Shown here: positions 1 through 11,082 of the stretch, in pieces
Layout: the number at the start of each line of letters is the position of its first letter
Position numbering within the stretch: the stretch's first letter is position 1
Source of the DNA: an uncultured Candidatus Saccharibacteria bacterium
GTDB taxonomy: Bacteria; Patescibacteriota; Dojkabacteria; SC72
Assembly (NCBI GenBank): GCA_964423025.1
Contig: CAYRDH010000007.1
Coordinates: 1 to 24,000 of the forward strand
DNA: 24,000 nucleotides
Direction: 5' to 3'
Program-made: the position numbers and the translations under genes
The notes under the pieces: generated by a model
What the model was told of the DNA's origin: nothing
Database searches by the model: none
Seen by the model: the letters and a program-made list of their open reading frames with translations, nothing else

Positions 1-57
1 TAGAGCAACTGCCTTTTAAGCAGTAGGTGCTGGGTTCGAGTCCCAGGCGCCTCACCA
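1..57 (+). tRNA. tRNA-Lys (anticodon UUU), 3' portion only; the 5' end lies upstream of the window
   Basis: Anticodon stem 8-12 (ACTGC) pairs with 20-24 (GCAGT). The 7-nt loop CTTTTAA puts TTT at 15-17. T arm is CTGGG/TTCGAGT/CCCAG (30-46). Acceptor 3' strand is GCGCCTC, discriminator A, encoded CCA at 55-57. Confidence 0.85.
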
Positions 58-4981: not shown

Positions 4982-5905
4982 TTACAAAGAGATCTTTTTC
5001 TCAAAGTCAATAAAAAGAGTATCGTAATTAAAGTCAGGGTAATGCTCTTTGCTTAGATATATACCATATGGATCCCTACTTAGAATTTTCTCTCCACTCT
5101 CCCAATCCCTAGCCGCTTCTTCAAAGTGTAAGTGGGGTTTATCCCAACTTTTAATTTTTCTTAAGTTTGGTCTTTTTCTATTTTCAAAATATTTAAGTCT
5201 TCCATGTATTAATCCAGATACACCGATATATCCAATAATATCTCCTTGTTCTACCCATTTCACATATTTATTGTCCTCATCCGCAAGCCTTTTTAGTTCC
5301 CCAGGGGTATACATGAAGGATTCTTTTTTCTTTATGTTCTCTGAGAAGGAATAGCCATAGAGCCTTTTTATCCAAGAGTATTTCCTAATTATTCTTCTAG
5401 TATTTCTTATCATCTCTTCTATTTCTTCTTTCCCTTTCCTATATTTTCTCTTATCTTTATTGCTTTTAATTATCCTTCGTTTGTAATCTACTCTTAGGGG
5501 TCTGTGTGTTTTAGCATATATGCCATCCCCAAATTTTGAAAGATGTCCATATATTGTTATTCTTCCACCTTTAACCCTAGAAATTTTGTAGGGATGATAT
5601 ATCTGTACGAAATAGCCTAGGCCTGAGGAGAAAGGCTTGCCATCGTATAACTTTGGGGTGTTATCCTCGTTTAGAACTGTATATCTGTGGTAACCTGCTA
5701 CAGCATAACCACTTGCAGAAGCATAAACAGGGGTCTTATGTGTAGAAGCGTAGTCTATTCCTTTGTGAAAATACCTGTTAAGAATATCTCTTTCCTCCTT
5801 TGTATAAAGGAAACCTTCTGTTATTGGGGCGCTCTCTTTTAAGGGGTGTATTAGGTATCTGTAATTTCTAATATCCGGGGCATATCTTACTCTCACTGTA
5901 GCCAT
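4982..5905 (-). CDS. M23 family metallopeptidase (LytM/lysostaphin-like) with an internal Lys/Arg-rich insertion and no obvious signal peptide
   Basis: M23 motifs HxxxD (HKGIDYA) and HxH (PHLHFE). A K/R-rich segment (KRRIIKSNKDKRKYRKGKEE...) lies between them. TATAAT sits 7 nt upstream of the ATG, so the mRNA may be leaderless. Confidence 0.8.
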   Translation of the reverse strand: MATVRVRYAPDIRNYRYLIHPLKESAPITEGFLYTKEERDILNRYFHKGIDYASTHKTPVYASASGYAVAGYHRYTVLNEDNTPKLYDGKPFSSGLGYFVQIYHPYKISRVKGGRITIYGHLSKFGDGIYAKTHRPLRVDYKRRIIKSNKDKRKYRKGKEEIEEMIRNTRRIIRKYSWIKRLYGYSFSENIKKKESFMYTPGELKRLADEDNKYVKWVEQGDIIGYIGVSGLIHGRLKYFENRKRPNLRKIKSWDKPHLHFEEAARDWESGEKILSRDPYGIYLSKEHYPDFNYDTLFIDFEKKISL

Positions 5906-6984: not shown

Positions 6985-8424
6985 TTATATTTTTAACTCC
7001 AATCTGCCAGTTTCTTTTTCTAGTGCAAAGGAGGCATTTAATATGGTCTGTTCATCAAAGTGTCTACCTATGAACTGGATACCTGTGGGCATACCTTCGC
7101 TTAGGCCTGAAGGTATAGATATCCCAGGGAGGCCTGCTTCGGAACTAGATTCTGCCAAGACATCTGCTAATTCTCCAAAGAGGGGATTTTCTGCGTCCTC
7201 GTCTTTAAGCGCTATTGATGGGGTAGTGGGCCCTATGATTAAGTCATATTTATTAAGGATTCTGTCGATGTCTTCTTTAATTAACTGTCTAACCTGTTCA
7301 GACTTTTTGAAGTATTCATCTGCATATCCAGCGGATAATGAAAAGGTTCCAGTCATAATTCTTCTCTTATTCTCTTCTCCTAATCCTTCACCTCTTGTAG
7401 ATTCGTAAAGGTCGATTATTGTTTTGTTTTCAGTCCCTTCATAACCATATCTTGTTCCATCATATCTTGCCAAGTTTGAGGAGACCTCACTTCTGCAAGT
7501 TATTGTGTAAACAGCTATCCCATATTTAGGATCTAATATGTTTACTTCCTCTATCTTGGCTCCTAATTTCTTTAATGTATCTATAGCACTAAGGAAGTTC
7601 TTTCTAACACCATCTTCCAGTTCTAATTCTAGATATTCCTTAGGTAGTGCAATCTTCATCCCCTTTATTTTGTTAGCATCTAAACTTTCGTAGTAATTAG
7701 GGACTTCTGTTTTGGAAGATGTGAAGTCATTTTTGTCATGTCCTGCCATAATGCTGAGCATGTATGCTGCATCTTCTACACTCTTCGTAATTGGGCCTGG
7801 ACTGTCTAATGAGGAACCCATTGCTAATACTCCATATCTAGATACTCTTCCGTATGTTGGTTTAAGTCCGACTATCCCGCACCATGATGCTGGGAGACGA
7901 ATTGAACCAGCTGTTTCTGTTCCAATGGATGCAGTAGATAGGTCAGCTGCTAAAGCTGCTGCAGAACCTCCACTAGAGCCTCCAGGGAGTCTTTCTGTGT
8001 CCCAAGGGTTCCTAGATGGTCCATAATATGATGTTACTGTTCCAGATCCATGACAGAATTGGTCTAGGTTAGTTTTACCAATTAAGATAGCTTCTTGTTC
8101 TTTAAGTTTTTTAATAACGGTAGCATCATAAACGGGTTTGTAACCTTCTAAAATCTTGGATGCTGCTGTTGTAGGTAGTCCCTTTGTAGAAAATATGTCT
8201 TTTACTGAAATGGGAATACCTGCAAGCTTGTTTTCTTTAAGTCTGTCAAAGTTGTTGTCTAGCTCTTCTGCCTGTTTAAGGGAGTCATCTGCAAAAACAT
8301 TGATGTATGTGTTAAGAGATTTGTCTAATTTTTCTATTCTGTCTACGTAGTATTGTACTATCTCTTTGGCAGATATCTCTTTTTTAAGAAGTTTCTCTCT
8401 TAGTTGAGTTATTGTTAAGTTCAT
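6985..8424 (-). CDS. gatA: Glutamyl/aspartyl-tRNA amidotransferase subunit A
   Basis: Amidase signature GGSSGGSAAALAA, typical GatA length (479 aa), and end-to-end resemblance to GatA proteins. Confidence 0.92.
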   Translation of the reverse strand: MNLTITQLREKLLKKEISAKEIVQYYVDRIEKLDKSLNTYINVFADDSLKQAEELDNNFDRLKENKLAGIPISVKDIFSTKGLPTTAASKILEGYKPVYDATVIKKLKEQEAILIGKTNLDQFCHGSGTVTSYYGPSRNPWDTERLPGGSSGGSAAALAADLSTASIGTETAGSIRLPASWCGIVGLKPTYGRVSRYGVLAMGSSLDSPGPITKSVEDAAYMLSIMAGHDKNDFTSSKTEVPNYYESLDANKIKGMKIALPKEYLELELEDGVRKNFLSAIDTLKKLGAKIEEVNILDPKYGIAVYTITCRSEVSSNLARYDGTRYGYEGTENKTIIDLYESTRGEGLGEENKRRIMTGTFSLSAGYADEYFKKSEQVRQLIKEDIDRILNKYDLIIGPTTPSIALKDEDAENPLFGELADVLAESSSEAGLPGISIPSGLSEGMPTGIQFIGRHFDEQTILNASFALEKETGRLELKI

Positions 8425-8436
8425 TATTTAACTATT

Positions 8437-9009
8437 CTACCAAAAAGGCCAATAAATGAGAATTGAAATACTTAAGGGAATAAGGGTTCCGAGGGTTACT
8501 TGGGTTAGGGTGTGTTTGTTAAGTGCTATTCTAGACCAGCCGACGAATGGTGTTAGTACAAAAAGAAACATAAGTGCAGGAGTGGTTGGGAATAGATAGA
8601 TTAGTGTGGCAAACAGTATTGTGGAATATGTCATATGTCCAGATATTTTCCAGTAGAAGGTTATTATGGTGACTATGGTAGAGACGACAAAGAGATTCAT
8701 GGTTACTCTGGTTAAGGTTTCTACATTTAGGGCTAATACAAAGAAGAATATTACACCAAACAATATTGTTATTGTTGTAAAGTAAGGAGGTCTTTCCTTT
8801 CTGTCTGTGAATTCATAGTCTGTCACCTTCCCTAATTTTTTAAGCGTTAAGTAGGGGAGTATGGGGGAGAGTAGGTACAGGAAGAAGAGAATTATTTTTT
8901 GTGTGATTGGTATGGGCGAAGAGAATACGGCAATGGTTGGTGTTAGTATCATGGTCATAAAACCATTGAACATTTCGGATATTATTCTTGCGATTTTCGT
9001 TTTGGCCAT
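8437..9009 (-). CDS. PAP2-superfamily membrane phosphatase (190 aa)
   Basis: Polytopic membrane protein carrying PAP2-like motifs KERPP, SGH (KISGHM) and SRxxxxxH (SRIALNKH). Confidence 0.6.
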   Translation of the reverse strand: MAKTKIARIISEMFNGFMTMILTPTIAVFSSPIPITQKIILFFLYLLSPILPYLTLKKLGKVTDYEFTDRKERPPYFTTITILFGVIFFFVLALNVETLTRVTMNLFVVSTIVTIITFYWKISGHMTYSTILFATLIYLFPTTPALMFLFVLTPFVGWSRIALNKHTLTQVTLGTLIPLSISILIYWPFW

Positions 9010-9014
9010 CGTTT

Positions 9015-9042
9015 ATTCTAGCGGAAAAGTTTGTGTATGCAA
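9015..9042 (-). promoter_or_regulatory. Putative promoter of the PAP2-gatA-nrnA gene string; would give a leaderless mRNA
   Basis: The minus strand reads TTGCAT (9042-9037), a 16-nt spacer, TAGAAT (9020-9015), 5 nt, then the ATG at 9009. Confidence 0.4.
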
Positions 9043-9057
9043 AGTGTGAGGGTTTTT

Positions 9058-9114
9058 GGTTAGGAGAGGGATATGTTTTGTGTGTTTTAAGCACTGGTAT
9101 ATTCTCTCCTAACC
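9058..9114 (-). repeat. Long hairpin, third member of the GTTAG/CTAAC hairpin family; no ribozyme attached
   Basis: GGTTAGGAGAG..ATAT (9058-9074) pairs with ATAT.CTCTCCTAACC (9099-9114), about 16 bp with one bulge. It has the same base sequence (GTTAG/CTAAC) and the same purine-rich/pyrimidine-rich arm layout as the hairpins at 9711-9774 and 10168-10226. It lies 60 nt after the stop of the 9174..9545 gene. Confidence 0.7.
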
Positions 9115-9173: not shown

Positions 9174-9545
9174 CTATTTAAGTGAATCTCGGAGATTTTC
9201 CAACTTGGTCTCGACTTCTTCGAAGTAAACTTCCTCGCAGGAATCACTTGCGATGGAATCTCGAAGTTTGGTTATTCTTTTTAGGCATTGGACATTCTCA
9301 ATGATTCTCTGGATTTCTGAACGATGCGATCCCTGAACAACATAGAAATCGTTTTGGAAGGTATCCAAGAAATTGAGAATAACCCAGACATAGCCAGCGA
9401 TAACTGCAGCTATTCCGAAGAAGAGCATGCCAATGTCATCTAGCTGTATCGTGTAGATCAGAAACCATGTACAACCGGCTGTGATGATGAGCCTTATCAG
9501 TGTATTAGCTGTAAAGGTTAGTACAAACTTTTTCCAAATGGACAT
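9174..9545 (-). CDS. Small two-TM membrane protein with a C-terminal coiled-coil-like tail (123 aa), gene C of the array
   Basis: ORF track. Strong SD context CCAAGGAGGTTAAAAATG. Two hydrophobic helices, then a charged helical tail. Confidence 0.75.
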   Translation of the reverse strand: MSIWKKFVLTFTANTLIRLIITAGCTWFLIYTIQLDDIGMLFFGIAAVIAGYVWVILNFLDTFQNDFYVVQGSHRSEIQRIIENVQCLKRITKLRDSIASDSCEEVYFEEVETKLENLRDSLK

Positions 9546-9603
9546 TTTTAACCTCCTTGGTTAAGTGTTGGAATAGGGACTTTGCATTTTAAAGAACATA
9601 TAT

Positions 9604-9612
9604 ATTATACCA
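9604..9612 (-). promoter_or_regulatory. Extended -10 element TGGTATAAT upstream of gene C
   Basis: The minus strand reads TGGTATAAT. A homologous TGATATAAT occupies the equivalent position in the other repeat unit (10062-10070). No convincing -35. Confidence 0.4.
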
Positions 9613-9656
9613 AAATACAGGCCTATAGCATATATCTTCTTTGATAAGCAGGACGG

Positions 9657-9710
9657 AGTAAGTTTCGCTTCATTTCAGAAGCTCATCAGATTTGTAACAA
9701 ATGACTTACT
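9657..9710 (-). ncRNA. Hammerhead self-cleaving ribozyme, type III topology (copy 1)
   Basis: The minus strand reads AGUAAGUC-AUUUG-UUA-CAAAU-CUGAUGA-GCUUC-UGAAAU-GAAGC-GAA-ACUUACU. The parts are: stem III 5' strand plus GUC cleavage triplet (C17 is the complement of 9703); stem I of 5 bp closed by a triloop; core C3-A9 as CUGAUGA; stem II of 5 bp starting G10.1-C11.1 with a hexaloop; core G12 A13 A14; the A15.1-U16.1 pair; and a 7-bp stem III. Every invariant core position is present. Confidence 0.88.
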
Positions 9711-9774
9711 AGTTAGAGGAGGAATATATTGTTGAGATGTACATTTACATGTACCAATATATCCTCCTCTAACT
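9711..9774 (-). repeat. Long hairpin immediately 5' of hammerhead copy 1 on the coding strand
   Basis: AGTTAGAGGAGGAATATATTG (9711-9731) pairs with CAATATATCCTCCTCTAACT (9755-9774), 20 bp with one bulged A. The apical part adds GTACAT/ATGTAC (9739-9744 with 9749-9754). There is no linker before ribozyme stem III (9710). The hairpin starts 8 nt after the stop of the 61-aa gene. The T-run (9774-9778) is on the + strand side only. Confidence 0.8.
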
Positions 9775-9782
9775 TTTTAGGT

Positions 9783-9968
9783 TTATCTGCCCCAGATTCT
9801 TTTGTATGCATCGAAAAAAATAAATGAGACACCAATTATGACAATAATTGTTATTATGACATAGCTTGGTCCCAAACTAACTGCGTAGTGCATGCTATTC
9901 ACCATAGAATATATGGCGACCATTACAAGGAGTGTAACGGGTATGGAAAGGAGAATTTTTCTCTTCAT
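9783..9968 (-). CDS. Very small two-TM membrane protein (61 aa), gene B of the array
   Basis: ORF track. Strong SD context CCCAGGAGGTAAAAATG. Two hydrophobic helices and a basic C terminus (KRIWGR). Confidence 0.7.
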   Translation of the reverse strand: MKRKILLSIPVTLLVMVAIYSMVNSMHYAVSLGPSYVIITIIVIIGVSFIFFDAYKRIWGR

Positions 9969-10061
9969 TTTTACCTCCTGGGTAGAATGAGTTTTAATGA
10001 GCAGATATTATTTATCCTTAAATAGAAAAAGATCATATTAATAGGATATTAACCTATATAC

Positions 10062-10070
10062 ATTATATCA
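10062..10070 (-). promoter_or_regulatory. Extended -10 element TGATATAAT upstream of gene B
   Basis: The minus strand reads TGATATAAT. It lies in a stretch (10052-10091) that aligns at roughly 70% identity with 9596-9633, which carries the other -10 element. Confidence 0.4.
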
Positions 10071-10113
10071 AAATATCAACCTATAGTATAGCAATGCTGA
10101 TTCCTGTCTTTGG

Positions 10114-10167
10114 GGTAAGTTTCGCTTCATTTCAGAAGCTCATCAGATTTGTAACAAATGACTTACT
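10114..10167 (-). ncRNA. Hammerhead self-cleaving ribozyme, type III topology (copy 2)
   Basis: 10115-10173 is 100% identical to 9658-9716 (59 nt). Core and stems match copy 1. C17 is the complement of 10160. The outermost stem III pair is an A-C mismatch, leaving 6 bp. Confidence 0.88.
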
Positions 10168-10226
10168 AGTTAGGGGAGAGATTGTTTTTGTTATTGTACC
10201 TATATGTACCAATTTCTCCCCTAACT
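10168..10226 (-). repeat. Long hairpin immediately 5' of hammerhead copy 2 on the coding strand
   Basis: AGTTAGGGGAGAGATTG (10168-10184) pairs with CAATTTCTCCCCTAACT (10210-10226), 17 bp including one G-U. The base AGTTAG/CTAACT is identical to copy 1, and the inner stem differs by compensatory changes. Apical GTAC/GTAC pairing is possible. A T-rich run (TTTTCTTCT) follows on the + strand side only. Confidence 0.8.
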
Positions 10227-10299: not shown

Positions 10300-10749
10300 T
10301 TATTTTTGCTCAATGAGCTTGTCGATTTTTCTTTCCAACGATTGAAGCTTGTATTTGAGGTCATCCTCTGACATCTTTCGTTCAAGCATAGAGACTTTAA
10401 ACTCTGACTTTGACAGGATGTCGTTAACGTAATTGGATGACTGTCGGAAGCGAATCTGCCAGAGGTCTCTTTGTATATGACGAAAGTCGTCATCATGTCT
10501 ACGAGCGAAGGTTATCCAATAAGTGTACCAAGCAATAAAGATGTATCCAGCGACTGCGAAAGCAATGCGGATAGCTGACTGCTTTTCTATTCCTGAAAGT
10601 AAAAGCTCAGAGAATTGGTACAACATGAGTATAGCCCAAGCAACGTAGAGTAGTCCTAGAAACACCTCGGAAAGGGTTTCAAACAGTATTGTGTGTTCCG
10701 AGACAAAGTTTTTAATCTTGTCCCAAAGATTTTTAAAGAAGTTTTTCAT
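10300..10749 (-). CDS. Small two-TM membrane protein with a C-terminal coiled-coil-like tail (149 aa from the ATG at 10749), gene A of the array
   Basis: ORF 10300..10809, trimmed to the ATG preceded by CACGGAGGTGTAATAATG. Begins MKNFFKNLW. Two hydrophobic helices, then a charged heptad-like tail. Weak resemblance to gene C (an AGY motif in TM2, then xTF..DF..Q). Confidence 0.75.
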   Translation of the reverse strand: MKNFFKNLWDKIKNFVSEHTILFETLSEVFLGLLYVAWAILMLYQFSELLLSGIEKQSAIRIAFAVAGYIFIAWYTYWITFARRHDDDFRHIQRDLWQIRFRQSSNYVNDILSKSEFKVSMLERKMSEDDLKYKLQSLERKIDKLIEQK

Positions 10750-10924: not shown

Positions 10925-11068
10925 TTATTCTGGCTTTGCTATCCAAGATGGATCAGATATTCCTTCTGTGAGGATATCTTGGGAAGTGTCTACAGGAAGT
11001 TCCTGCTTAGGTAGGAATACTGGAACAAAGAATGTATTTAATATTGTTATGATTGCTAGTATTAACAT
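10925..11068 (-). CDS. Small membrane protein (47 aa), below the ORF-track cutoff and probably leaderless
   Basis: Hand translation of the minus strand gives MLILAIITILNTFFVPVFLPKQELPVDTSQDILTEGISDPSWIAKPE, then TAA. It has an N-terminal hydrophobic helix. TGGTATAAT ends 5 nt before the ATG, and a terminator-like hairpin follows. Confidence 0.45.
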   Translation of the reverse strand: MLILAIITILNTFFVPVFLPKQELPVDTSQDILTEGISDPSWIAKPE

Positions 11069-11073
11069 AGGAG

Positions 11074-11082
11074 ATTATACCA
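11074..11082 (-). promoter_or_regulatory. Extended -10 element TGGTATAAT driving the 47-aa ORF
   Basis: The minus strand reads TGGTATAAT, the same 9-mer as at 9604-9612, followed by CTCCT and the ATG at 11068. Confidence 0.4.

What the first reader, a model, noticed from the sequence alone, without database searches (positions are those of the whole stretch)
9657..10167. Two identical type III hammerhead self-cleaving ribozymes between small membrane-protein genes
Segments 9658-9716 and 10115-10173 are 100% identical over 59 nt, while the surrounding intergenic DNA is about 70% identical or unalignable. On the minus (coding) strand each reads AGUAAGUC / AUUUG-UUA-CAAAU / CUGAUGA / GCUUC-UGAAAU-GAAGC / GAA / ACUUAC(U/C). 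That is a full hammerhead:
- a GUC cleavage triplet;
- stem I, 5 bp closed by a triloop;
- the CUGAUGA core;
- stem II, 5 bp opening with G10.1-C11.1 and closed by a hexaloop;
- the GAA core;
- the A15.1-U16.1 pair and an open-ended stem III, which makes it type III.

Predicted cleavage is 3' of the C complementary to 9703 and to 10160. The ribozymes sit between genes A/B and B/C of a same-strand array, so read-through transcripts would be cut into separate RNAs. The compact form (short closed stem I, hexaloop on stem II) recalls, from memory, the type III hammerheads of chloroplastic viroids and retrozymes more than the type II forms usually reported in bacteria. That comparison needs an alignment check.
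Basis: partly seen in the sequence, partly recalled or inferred. Interest (0 to 1): 0.9.

Follow-up and report, generated by a model that had tools for sequence, protein, structure and literature searches.

The report
Hammerhead ribozymes ending small-gene transcripts
Two genuine self-cleaving hammerhead RNAs, each fused to a conserved hairpin, sit just after small membrane-protein genes in an uncultured (Dojkabacteria) bacterium, where they most likely cut the end of each message; this is a known kind of element, with unusually clear comparative evidence about its position.

Summary
On the minus strand, 9657-9710 and 10114-10167 match Rfam Hammerhead_3 at 59.9 and 57.8 bits (threshold 48.5).

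Fourteen syntenic loci from Candidatus Dojkabacteria hold 28 such units.
- The 54-nt ribozyme is the best conserved segment of the locus: 94% pairwise identity, against 63% for the adjacent coding sequence.
- Every change lies in a loop, at tolerant core position N7, at the outer end of stem III, or is compensated. The exception is a loop-closing C.A in stem II, outside the Rfam stem.

New points:
- Each evaluable ribozyme directly follows a conserved long hairpin with no U-tract.
- Where more sequence follows, the ribozyme lies upstream of the next gene's own promoter. One lies at a convergent gene end.
- A relative without the ribozyme has a canonical terminator at that spot.
- The number and identity of the small genes between ribozymes differ among close relatives.

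I infer that hairpin plus hammerhead forms the 3' end of each message and insulates the next transcription unit. No phage link was found. Clustered hammerheads flanking small unknown ORFs in bacteria have been known since 2010-2011, so this is a new member of a known kind.

The parts
10114..10167 (-). Hammerhead ribozyme, type III, copy 1 (after gene A); predicted cleavage 3' of C17, the complement of 10160
   Evidence: RF00008, 57.8 bits against a gathering score of 48.5, full-length match; core CUGAUGA/GAA/GUC intact
9657..9710 (-). Hammerhead ribozyme, type III, copy 2 (after gene B); predicted cleavage 3' of C17, the complement of 9703
   Evidence: RF00008, 59.9 bits
10169..10225 (-). Conserved long hairpin (GUUAGGGGAGA...UCUCCCCUAAC) ending 1 nt before stem III of copy 1; no U-tract follows
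   Evidence: Inverted repeat I1; motif match; fold -36 kcal/mol for hairpin plus ribozyme, z=-5.2; compensatory changes across relatives
9712..9773 (-). Conserved long hairpin ending 1 nt before stem III of copy 2
   Evidence: Inverted repeat I5; motif match; fold z=-8.3
9058..9114 (-). Third hairpin of the same type after gene C, with no hammerhead behind it
   Evidence: Sequence; fold -21.3 kcal/mol, z=-4.6; no hammerhead match between gene C and the PAP2-like gene in L036 or L056 either
10062..10070 (-). Extended -10 promoter-like element TGATATAAT for gene B, 42 nt downstream of the 56-nt ribozyme segment scanned for (the 54-nt match plus one base on each side), copy 1
   Evidence: the same element lies 38-48 nt after 17 of 28 ribozymes, against a background of 0.36 per kb
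9604..9612 (-). Extended -10 promoter-like element TGGTATAAT for gene C, 43 nt downstream of the same 56-nt segment, copy 2
10300..10749 (-). Gene A, 149 aa, membrane protein with a coiled-coil-like charged tail; conserved first gene of the array (start taken at MKNFF, which has a GGAGG 7 nt upstream)
   Evidence: 20 homologue clusters, named only in Dojkabacteria; no Pfam, PHROG, PADLOC or NCBIfam hit
9783..9968 (-). Gene B, 61 aa, two hydrophobic segments; present in only some relatives
9174..9545 (-). Gene C, 123 aa, small membrane protein; present in only some relatives (L036, L056)
9015..9043 (-). Promoter-like TTTGCA-17-TAGAAT of the PAP2-like gene, with the ATG 5 nt after the -10 (probably leaderless); in relatives the last ribozyme abuts it
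8437..9009 (-). PAP2-like membrane phosphatase gene, the conserved downstream anchor of the locus (followed by gatA at 6985-8424)

Best explanation
Both elements are functional type III hammerhead self-cleaving ribozymes, encoded on the chromosome of a Candidatus Dojkabacteria (candidate phyla radiation, CPR) bacterium. Each is the 3' half of a conserved two-part module in the 3' untranslated region of a small membrane-protein gene. The module is a long hairpin without a U-tract, one spacer nucleotide, then the hammerhead.

Proposed mechanism: RNA polymerase transcribes the gene, the hairpin and the ribozyme. The ribozyme then cuts itself 9 nt after the hairpin. This is inferred; cleavage was not assayed. 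The upstream message would end in a stable hairpin plus a 2',3'-cyclic phosphate, a well protected 3' end. Any read-through RNA would be uncoupled from it and would start with a 5'-OH. The next gene is expressed from its own promoter, which lies about 40 nt downstream of the ribozyme. The module therefore acts as a ribozyme-made 3' end and an insulator between adjacent transcription units, in the place where an intrinsic terminator would normally sit.

The module and its gene have been tandemly duplicated. The repeated modules probably also serve as sites of homologous recombination, which would explain why the number and identity of the small genes differ among close relatives.

Status of each step:
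- Shown: ribozyme identity, conservation, position and the variable gene content.
- Inferred: cleavage in vivo, the stabilising and insulating effect, and the recombination mechanism.
For: Identity:
- RF00008 scores of 59.9 and 57.8 bits against a gathering score of 48.5.
- 26 further units in 13 related loci: 19 scored by Rfam at 55.6-60.5 bits, the others found by the pattern.
- In 13 distinct 54-mers, 43 of 54 columns are invariant. Changes fall in loops, at N7, at the outermost stem III pair, or are compensated. The compensated pairs are stem I G-C/C-G (8:5), stem II C-G/U-A (6:5, with two C.A rows) and stem III G-C/A-U.

Selection: mean pairwise identity across 11 orthologous regions is 94% for the ribozyme, 84% for the hairpin, 75% for the rest of the 3' UTR, 63% for the gene A coding sequence and 47% for the downstream spacer.

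Position:
- In all 27 evaluable units a hairpin of -20 to -32 kcal/mol ends 0-1 nt before the base that precedes stem III.
- The hairpin motif occurs nowhere else in the window or the fetched loci, and 4 of its pairs covary.
- 17 of 28 units have TGnTAnAAT 38-48 nt downstream, where 0.004 per unit is expected.
- The other units abut the conserved PAP2 promoter, lack a TGnTAnAAT match in that window, or the held sequence ends.
- In L069 the fifth ribozyme (9505-9560) is followed at once by the stop of a convergent gene at 9562.
- L057/L058 lack both the small genes and the ribozyme, and carry a canonical hairpin plus U-tract terminator at the same spot.
- No U-tract follows the hairpins, and canonical terminators are not enriched in the window (17 found against 11.9 +/- 3.3 in shuffles).

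Literature: a role of bacterial hammerhead and twister ribozymes in 3' UTR or polycistronic mRNA processing has been suggested but not established (PMC6765202, PMC3088659).
Against: - No cleavage assay and no transcript-end data are available.
- The promoters are consensus matches only, although conserved and precisely positioned.
- A hairpin of the same type follows gene C without any ribozyme (window, L036, L056), so the hairpin can apparently do its job alone, and the ribozyme's added benefit is undefined.
- In L068 three small genes follow one another with no ribozyme between them.
- Covariation is thin, at one pair per stem, because the family is narrow. Its stem II example has C.A intermediates and lies outside the 4-bp stem II of the Rfam model.
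- The fate of 5'-OH and 2',3'-cyclic-phosphate RNAs in these organisms is unknown. The RNase J analogy comes from the glmS ribozyme in Bacillus (recalled knowledge; the review PMC6765202 says only that cellular RNases degrade the cleaved glmS mRNA).
Confidence: 0.6

Rival explanations
1. Polycistronic-mRNA processing. The array is transcribed as one long RNA from upstream of gene A. The ribozymes cut it into monocistronic messages, and the main beneficiary is the downstream gene. Its message would begin exactly at the stem I hairpin with a 5'-OH, giving it a different stability or translation efficiency.
For: All genes are on the same strand, with short intergenic gaps and no canonical terminators between them. 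After cleavage the 3' product starts exactly at the first base of the stem I hairpin. This role was suggested for clustered bacterial hammerheads that cleave ~2-kb polycistronic constructs in vitro (PMC3088659).
Against: A conserved TGnTATAAT lies downstream of 17 of 28 ribozymes, so the main transcripts of the downstream genes would not contain the upstream ribozyme. The last ribozyme of the L069 array has no downstream same-strand gene. In L059 the ribozyme abuts the -35 element of the PAP2 promoter. The tightly conserved partner, the hairpin, lies on the upstream side of the cut.
Confidence: 0.2
2. Ribozyme-bounded mobile cassettes. The unit from one cleavage site to the next (457 nt in the window) is excised as RNA with 5'-OH and 2',3'-cyclic-phosphate ends and circularised by a cellular ligase. 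It then either acts as a circular message or is copied back into DNA, as plant and animal retrozymes are. This would account for the changing cassette content.
For: Direct repeats of type III hammerheads lie about 460-500 nt apart, the same topology as retrozymes and viroid multimers. Cassette number and identity vary among close relatives, from 0 to 4. In NPIE01010459.1 (loci L003 plus L055) the stem II variant of the ribozyme goes with the downstream cassette.
Against: No reverse transcriptase or integrase is found in the window or in the flanks examined. The ribozymes are confined to one locus per contig of 37-80 kb. The viral contig collection gave no hit. The interiors are diverged paralogous protein genes with their own promoters, as expected from tandem duplication plus homologous recombination between the repeated modules. 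Perreault et al. looked for circular or spliced products from bacterial hammerhead clusters and found none (PMC3088659).
Confidence: 0.05
3. The repeat is a DNA-level recombination site, for example an integron attC-like hairpin, and the hammerhead resemblance is incidental or a relic with no RNA function.
For: An imperfect inverted repeat with GTTAG...CTAAC ends lies next to each variable small-gene cassette. This superficially recalls the attC core sites (GTTRRRY/RYYYAAC; recalled knowledge).
Against: The order of the arms is the reverse of attC: GTTAG first and CTAAC last. No integrase is nearby. The most conserved part is the ribozyme, not the hairpin. Its substitutions follow RNA pairing rules and spare the catalytic core, which a DNA site would not require. 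In L011 and L026 the hairpin ends change to GCCAG...CUGGC with pairing kept, so the sequence motif itself is not conserved.
Confidence: 0.03

Closest known systems
Clustered hammerhead ribozymes flanking small genes in bacterial genomes and prophages (Perreault et al. 2011, PMC3088659; de la Pena & Garcia-Robles 2010, as reviewed in PMC6155905)
   Same: Several same-orientation hammerheads with a consensus core lie close together. They flank single small, poorly conserved ORFs of unknown function. The proposed role is mRNA processing, and the true function is still open.
   Different: No prophage, integrase or phage-gene context was found here. The host is a CPR bacterium (Dojkabacteria). Every evaluable ribozyme is fused to a conserved upstream hairpin, and where sequence follows it lies upstream of the next gene's promoter. 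These points fix its place at the 3' end of the upstream gene.
Type III hammerheads of viroids, viroid-like satellite RNAs and plant retrozymes (PMC6155905, PMC4918200)
   Same: Type III topology; short stems I and II closed by loops that match the RF00008 consensus (loop 1 UUA, loop 2 UGAAAU); direct repeats a few hundred nucleotides apart.
   Different: These copies are encoded in bacterial chromosomal DNA between protein-coding genes that have their own promoters and ribosome-binding sites. There is no sign of long terminal repeats or of RNA circles. The copies are confined to one locus.
glmS ribozyme (the only well-understood bacterial self-cleaving ribozyme; PMC6765202)
   Same: Self-cleavage of an mRNA changes the fate of the fragments through the new ends. 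The 5'-OH product is degraded by cellular RNases (RNase J1 in Bacillus, recalled knowledge).
   Different: glmS is a 5' UTR, metabolite-dependent ribozyme of a different fold. Here the ribozyme is in the 3' UTR, there is no sign of a ligand pocket, and activity is presumably constitutive.
RNase III processing hairpins between phage T7 genes, and synthetic ribozyme insulators such as RiboJ (recalled knowledge)
   Same: A cut next to a stable hairpin separates adjacent expression units and leaves a protective hairpin at the new RNA end.
   Different: In T7 the cut is made by a protein enzyme within the hairpin. RiboJ is engineered and is placed in 5' UTRs, with the hairpin after the ribozyme. 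Here the module is natural, the hairpin precedes the ribozyme, and the RNA cuts itself.

Membership tests
Hammerhead ribozyme, type III (Rfam RF00008) | Score at or above the curated gathering threshold of the covariance model, and the best hit within the hammerhead clan | tested here: met
   59.9 and 57.8 bits against 48.5, full-length matches to positions 1-54; overlapping clan hits were outcompeted
Hammerhead ribozyme, type III (Rfam RF00008) | Conserved catalytic core C3-U4-G5-A6-N7-G8-A9, G12-A13-A14, and cleavage-site triplet N-U-H (GUC) | tested here: met
   CUGAUGA, GAA and GUC are present in both copies. Across 13 distinct variants the only core change is U7 to C, at the tolerant position
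Hammerhead ribozyme, type III (Rfam RF00008) | Three helices around the core; stems I and II closed by loops and stem III open; A15.1-U16.1 and G10.1-C11.1 pairs | tested here: met
   Stem I 5 bp with a UUA loop, stem II 4-5 bp with a UGAAAU loop, stem III 6-7 bp and open
Hammerhead ribozyme, type III (Rfam RF00008) | Helices supported by compensatory substitutions in relatives | tested here: met
   One compensated pair in each stem. The only non-pairs inside the stems are two C.A rows at the stem II loop-closing pair, and the outermost stem III pair is often unpaired. 95.5% of cells are paired against 18-44% when the partners are slid. The support is thin because the family is narrow
Hammerhead ribozyme, type III (Rfam RF00008) | Loop 1 - loop 2 tertiary contact needed for fast cleavage at physiological Mg2+ | not testable with these tools
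   The loops match the RF00008 consensus letters and are nearly invariant, but no 3D test is possible
Hammerhead ribozyme, type III (Rfam RF00008) | Site-specific Mg2+-dependent self-cleavage giving 2',3'-cyclic-phosphate and 5'-OH ends | not testable with these tools
   Needs in vitro transcription or end-mapping of native RNA
Prophage-associated clustered bacterial hammerheads (Perreault 2011) | Several hammerheads in one orientation flanking individual genes or short gene blocks | tested here: met
   2 in the window and up to 5 in L069, spaced about 460-500 nt within the arrays
Prophage-associated clustered bacterial hammerheads (Perreault 2011) | Proximity to integrase or prophage genes | tested here: not met
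   Neighbours are surface proteins, a UvrD-like helicase, a PAP2-like phosphatase, gatA, a DHH-family protein, a GH18 hydrolase and, in relatives, sortase and a GT2 glycosyltransferase. No significant PHROG hits, no phage BLAST match, and no hits in the viral contig collection
Retrozyme / viroid-like circular RNA element | Non-coding interior between the hammerhead repeats; elements dispersed in many copies | tested here: not met
   The interiors hold conserved ORFs with ribosome-binding sites and promoters. The ribozymes occur at one locus per contig
Retrozyme / viroid-like circular RNA element | Circular RNA product; primer-binding site, polypurine tract and target-site duplications | not tested
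   No RNA data are available, and these motifs were not searched for
Intrinsic (Rho-independent) terminator | G+C-rich hairpin immediately followed by a U-tract | tested here: not met
   The hairpins are followed by UAGUAAGUC... and were not picked up by the terminator scan. A canonical terminator occupies the same site in L057/L058
Integron attC site | RYYYAAC...GTTRRRY arm order, with an integron integrase nearby | tested here: not met
   The arm order is reversed (GTTAG...CTAAC). The ends change to GCCAG...CTGGC in L011 and L026. No integrase was found. The attC consensus is recalled knowledge

The most novel reading that the evidence does not exclude
The hairpin-hammerhead module may be a natural ribozyme-based boundary between transcription units. 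In these terminator-poor CPR bacteria it would replace an intrinsic terminator: it makes a protected 3' end for the upstream message and disposes of, or uncouples, read-through RNA. If so, this would give one concrete answer to the long-open question of what constitutive hammerheads do in bacteria. A bolder version is that the cleavage-site-to-cleavage-site units are exchanged or circularised as RNA.
Probability: 0.3. Interest if true: 0.65.

Novelty: new member of a known kind. Interest (0 to 1): 0.4.

Why it matters
What self-cleaving ribozymes do in bacteria is still described as largely elusive, glmS apart (PMC6765202, PMC6155905). This locus adds no new ribozyme class, but it is a clean comparative case:
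- 28 units in 14 related genomes.
- A ribozyme under stronger constraint than the neighbouring genes.
- A fixed hairpin partner.
- A fixed place between a stop codon and the next promoter.
- A relative with an ordinary terminator at the same spot.

Together these turn the vague 'mRNA processing' idea into a specific, testable model of 3'-end formation and insulation. The locus also extends hammerheads to the candidate phyla radiation, outside any recognisable phage context.

Tried and rejected
- **Strict pattern** with both loops fixed: no hit in viral contigs and only one genome hit, L001. The relaxed pattern on metagenomes and the contexts of PAP2-like and gene A homologues made up for this.
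- **Phage origin**: no BLAST match to 50,697 phage records, no viral contig hits, and only insignificant PHROG hits. Rejected for lack of evidence.
- **Function of the small proteins**: Pfam, PHROGs, PADLOC and NCBIfam gave nothing usable. Only hydrophobic segments and weak paralogy among the 87-96-aa proteins could be established.
- **Integron attC idea** for the GTTAG...CTAAC hairpins: rejected, because the arm order is reversed, no integrase is present, and the ends covary.
- **Hairpin as an intrinsic terminator**: rejected, because there is no U-tract.
- **Minimum-free-energy folding of the 54-mer alone**: only z=-2.3, and the core is mispaired with stem I. This is usual for hammerheads and was not used as evidence either way.
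- **More distant PAP2-like orthologues** (45-66% identity, L061-L067) and L057/L058 (74%): no hammerhead above threshold. The element is confined to a subclade and has been lost or was never gained elsewhere.
- **Other pattern hits**: the ~2-kb repeat-ended contigs were checked for ORFs under genetic codes 1 and 4. They are non-coding and unrelated to this locus.
Full report
**Observation**

The direct repeat 9655-9721 / 10112-10178 is 67 nt long with two mismatches, which leaves 59 identical bases (9658-9716 = 10115-10173), spaced 457 nt apart. Rfam cmscan over the whole window finds two matches to RF00008 Hammerhead_3 on the minus strand: 9710->9657 at 59.9 bits and 10167->10114 at 57.8 bits. 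The gathering score is 48.5, and both matches cover model positions 1-54. A permissive E-value scan finds no further ribozyme in the 24 kb, and one overlapping match to another family of the hammerhead clan scored lower. The core (CUGAUGA, GAA, GUC), the G10.1-C11.1 and A15.1-U16.1 pairs and the cleavage positions (complements of 9703 and 10160) are as stated.

**Where the window comes from**

The neighbouring genes are chromosomal housekeeping and cell-envelope genes:
- gatA (amidase), a DHH-family protein, an M23 peptidase and a GH18 hydrolase;
- a PAP2-like membrane phosphatase;
- two giant Ig-like/beta-helix surface proteins;
- a UvrD-like helicase, DUF192, a VTT-domain protein and iPGM.

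The window G+C is 36.6%. A syntenic genome hit is titled Candidatus Dojkabacteria bacterium UBA4813 (L001). A 99%-identical homologue of gene A is named as coming from a Candidatus Dojkabacteria MAG. No phage signal was found: no hit in the viral contig collection, no BLAST match to phage records and no significant PHROG hit.

**Relatives**

I gathered related loci in three ways: a loop-constrained hammerhead pattern searched in genome and metagenome collections, the contexts of PAP2-like orthologues, and the contexts of gene A homologues. Together these gave 14 loci of the same clade with 28 ribozyme units. All the loci are syntenic or nearly so:
- a giant surface protein, a 47-aa ORF and gene A (~149 aa);
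- in some genomes, a sortase-GT2-LPATG-miniprotein operon;
- 0-4 small membrane-protein genes of 61-123 aa;
- the PAP2-like gene and gatA.

Arrays differ among close relatives:

| Locus | Order of genes and modules |
|---|---|
| Window | A \| HH \| B(61) \| HH \| C(123) \| hairpin only \| PAP2 |
| L040 | A \| HH \| B \| HH \| PAP2 |
| L036 | A \| HH \| C \| hairpin only \| PAP2 |
| L001 | A \| HH \| 87 aa \| HH \| PAP2 |
| L033 | A \| HH \| 96 aa \| HH \| PAP2 |
| NPIE01010459.1 (L003+L055) | A \| HH \| 89 aa \| HH \| B \| HH |
| L069 | A \| HH \| sortase-GT2-54 aa \| HH \| 90 \| HH \| 89 \| HH \| 94 \| HH, then a convergent gene |

(HH = hairpin plus hammerhead.) More distant relatives (L011, L026, L059) have a single ribozyme directly upstream of the PAP2 promoter. 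L057/L058 and the relatives with PAP2-like identity of 66% or less have none.

**Is the ribozyme under selection?**

Across 11 orthologous gene A 3' regions, mean pairwise identity is as follows:

| Segment | Mean pairwise identity |
|---|---|
| 54-nt ribozyme | 94% |
| Hairpin | 84% |
| Rest of the 3' UTR | 75% |
| Last 300 nt of the gene A coding sequence | 63% |
| 60 nt downstream | 47% |

Among the 13 distinct 54-mers, 43 columns are invariant. Changes occur only in these places:
- loop 1 and the last base of loop 2;
- core position 7 (U to C in L056), the one core position known to tolerate any base;
- the outermost stem III pair;
- three compensated pairs: stem I G-C/C-G (8:5), the stem II loop-closing pair C-G/U-A (6:5, with two C.A intermediates) and stem III G-C/A-U (one case).

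In total 95.5% of cells pair, against 18-44% when the partners are slid by 1-3 columns. Covariation is thin because the clade is narrow. Together with the covariance-model score and the conservation profile, membership in the type III hammerhead family is secure. Only the biochemical activity itself remains untested.

**The conserved hairpin partner**

In all 27 evaluable units a long hairpin (-20 to -32 kcal/mol in the 75 nt upstream) ends 0-1 nt before the base that precedes stem III. Its outer 11 bp show four pairs with changes on both sides, including GUUAG...CUAAC becoming GCCAG...CUGGC in L011 and L026. It has a small apical hairpin and an A-rich 3' internal loop. The motif occurs nowhere else in the window or in the 70 fetched loci. 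It is not followed by a U-tract, so it is not a canonical intrinsic terminator. After gene C the same kind of hairpin (9058-9114) occurs without a ribozyme, in the window, L036 and L056.

**Position relative to promoters**

TGnTAnAAT (an extended -10 element) occurs 39 times in 107 kb on the ribozyme strand. Of these, 17 lie 38-48 nt downstream of a ribozyme, where 0.004 per unit is expected. In the window only four such elements exist on the minus strand. Each lies just upstream of a gene of this locus: the 47-aa ORF that precedes gene A, B, C and gatA.

Several units without such an element abut the PAP2 promoter (TTTGCAT-N16/17-TAGAAT or TACAAT, with the ATG 5 nt later). This promoter is conserved even in relatives that lack the ribozyme. 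In L059 the -35 element begins right after stem III. In L069 the fifth ribozyme (9505-9560) is followed at 9562 by the stop of a convergent gene. In L057/L058, which lack gene A and the small genes, a textbook hairpin plus U-tract terminator occupies the site between the 48-aa ORF and the PAP2 promoter. The ribozyme is therefore a 3'-UTR element of the upstream gene, at the place where a terminator is expected.

**Mechanism proposed (inferred)**

1. Transcription runs through the gene, the hairpin and the ribozyme.
2. Self-cleavage 9 nt after the hairpin leaves the upstream message with a terminal hairpin and a 2',3'-cyclic phosphate.
3. Read-through RNA is uncoupled and carries a 5'-OH.
4. 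Downstream genes are expressed from their own promoters.

It also agrees with suggestions in the literature that bacterial hammerhead and twister ribozymes act in 3' UTRs or on polycistronic RNAs (PMC6765202, PMC3088659).

Points against the model:
- hairpin-only units exist;
- three genes in L068 follow one another with no ribozyme between them;
- there are no RNA data.

The varying gene content is most simply explained by tandem duplication and homologous recombination between the near-identical modules. An RNA-circle or retrozyme-like route is not excluded but has no positive support: no reverse transcriptase or integrase was found, and the elements occupy a single locus.

**The genes between the ribozymes**

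Most of the small proteins (B, C and the 87-96-aa ones) have two hydrophobic segments by a simple hydropathy scan, and several have an acidic or coiled-coil tail. The 87-96-aa proteins are weak paralogues of one another (blastp 1e-3 to 7e-7), while B and C are separate families. Gene A homologues form only 20 clusters, and the ones that carry an organism name are Dojkabacteria. No family or defence-system model matches. Their function is unknown. The surrounding genes point to the cell envelope.

**Comparison with what is known**

[quoted passage not shown] They cleave in vitro, and their role remains an open question with a suspected phage link (PMC6155905, PMC3088659). Type II is about as frequent in bacteria as types I and III (PMC3088659), so a type III form in a bacterium is not unusual.

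What is specific here is the CPR host, the absence of phage context, the fixed hairpin partner and the position evidence. I therefore class it as a new member of a known kind. Interest is moderate (0.4): a specialist would not be surprised by the ribozyme itself, but the locus gives a concrete, testable model for bacterial hammerhead function.

Noticed in passing
window 9058-9114 (-): A hairpin of the same family as the two ribozyme-linked hairpins follows gene C but has no hammerhead behind it. No hammerhead lies between gene C and the PAP2-like gene in L036 or L056 either, and relatives without gene C have a hammerhead at the PAP2 junction. This suggests loss of the ribozyme, or a cassette that never had one.
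   Followed up: partly
window 9015-9043 (-) and 8434-8442 (-): The PAP2-like gene and gatA each have a -10-like element (TAGAAT; TGGTAGAAT) ending only 5-9 nt before the ATG, with no Shine-Dalgarno sequence. This arrangement is conserved across distant relatives and suggests leaderless messages.
   Followed up: partly
window 10925-11068 (-), with TGGTATAAT at 11074-11082: A conserved 47-aa ORF (MLILAIITILNTFF...DILTEGISDPSWIAKPE) lies between the giant surface protein gene and gene A. Its DIL(T/D)EGISDP motif resembles the N-terminal region of the giant surface proteins seen in L040 and NPIE01010459.1 (DILDEGISDPAEI). It is present even in relatives that lack gene A (L057, L061, L064).
   Followed up: no
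window 9969-10061 (-); also L068 ~2162-2289, L069 ~5760-5879, L021 ~2130-2500: A long 5' leader of about 95 nt, starting AGGTTAATATCC..., follows the promoter of gene B. A similar start precedes the sortase-GT2 operon in relatives. It could be an unrecognised regulatory leader; it gave no Rfam hit.
   Followed up: no
L069 7630-7794; L011 728-904; L026 2867-3037: A 54-58-aa protein consists of little more than a sortase sorting signal (MYGPSLPATGGG, then a hydrophobic segment, then RLRRGE). It is encoded right after a sortase and a GT2 glycosyltransferase and is followed by a hairpin-hammerhead unit.
   Followed up: no
L016, L028, L031, L006, L013, L032, L034 and about 30 similar loci among L004-L054: Metagenome or metatranscriptome contigs of about 1.7-2.2 kb unit length have terminal or internal repeats (L028 holds two units). 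They have no long ORF under genetic code 1 or 4, and each carries a type III hammerhead with the same UGAAAY loop 2. They look like circular or concatemeric non-coding viroid-like or retrozyme-type RNAs.
   Followed up: partly
L038 (one site), L041 (two sites, 233 nt apart), L046 (two sites); positions: In another hammerhead group the 3' strand of stem III runs into AGGAGG (CGAAACAGGAGG...). A Shine-Dalgarno-like sequence is therefore part of, or adjacent to, the ribozyme stem, which could couple cleavage or folding to translation.
   Followed up: no
L064 269-353 (+): Rfam c-di-GMP-II-GAG riboswitch aptamer hit (51.6 bits against 40) upstream of a Peptidase_M73-family gene cluster in a Dojkabacteria relative.
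   Followed up: no
L056 2846-2899: One hammerhead copy has CUGACGAG (C at core position 7) and still scores 55.7 bits. This is a natural variant at the tolerant core position.
   Followed up: yes
L021 1167-1319 and L039 264-416: A 50-aa fragment resembling the N-terminus of gene A lies just upstream of the full gene A. It is a partial tandem duplication, consistent with frequent recombination in this locus.
   Followed up: no
window 1-54 (+): The 3' part of a tRNA gene is cut off by the window edge (RF00005, 36.9 bits). The same tRNA is intact in L001 at 7892-7964.
   Followed up: yes
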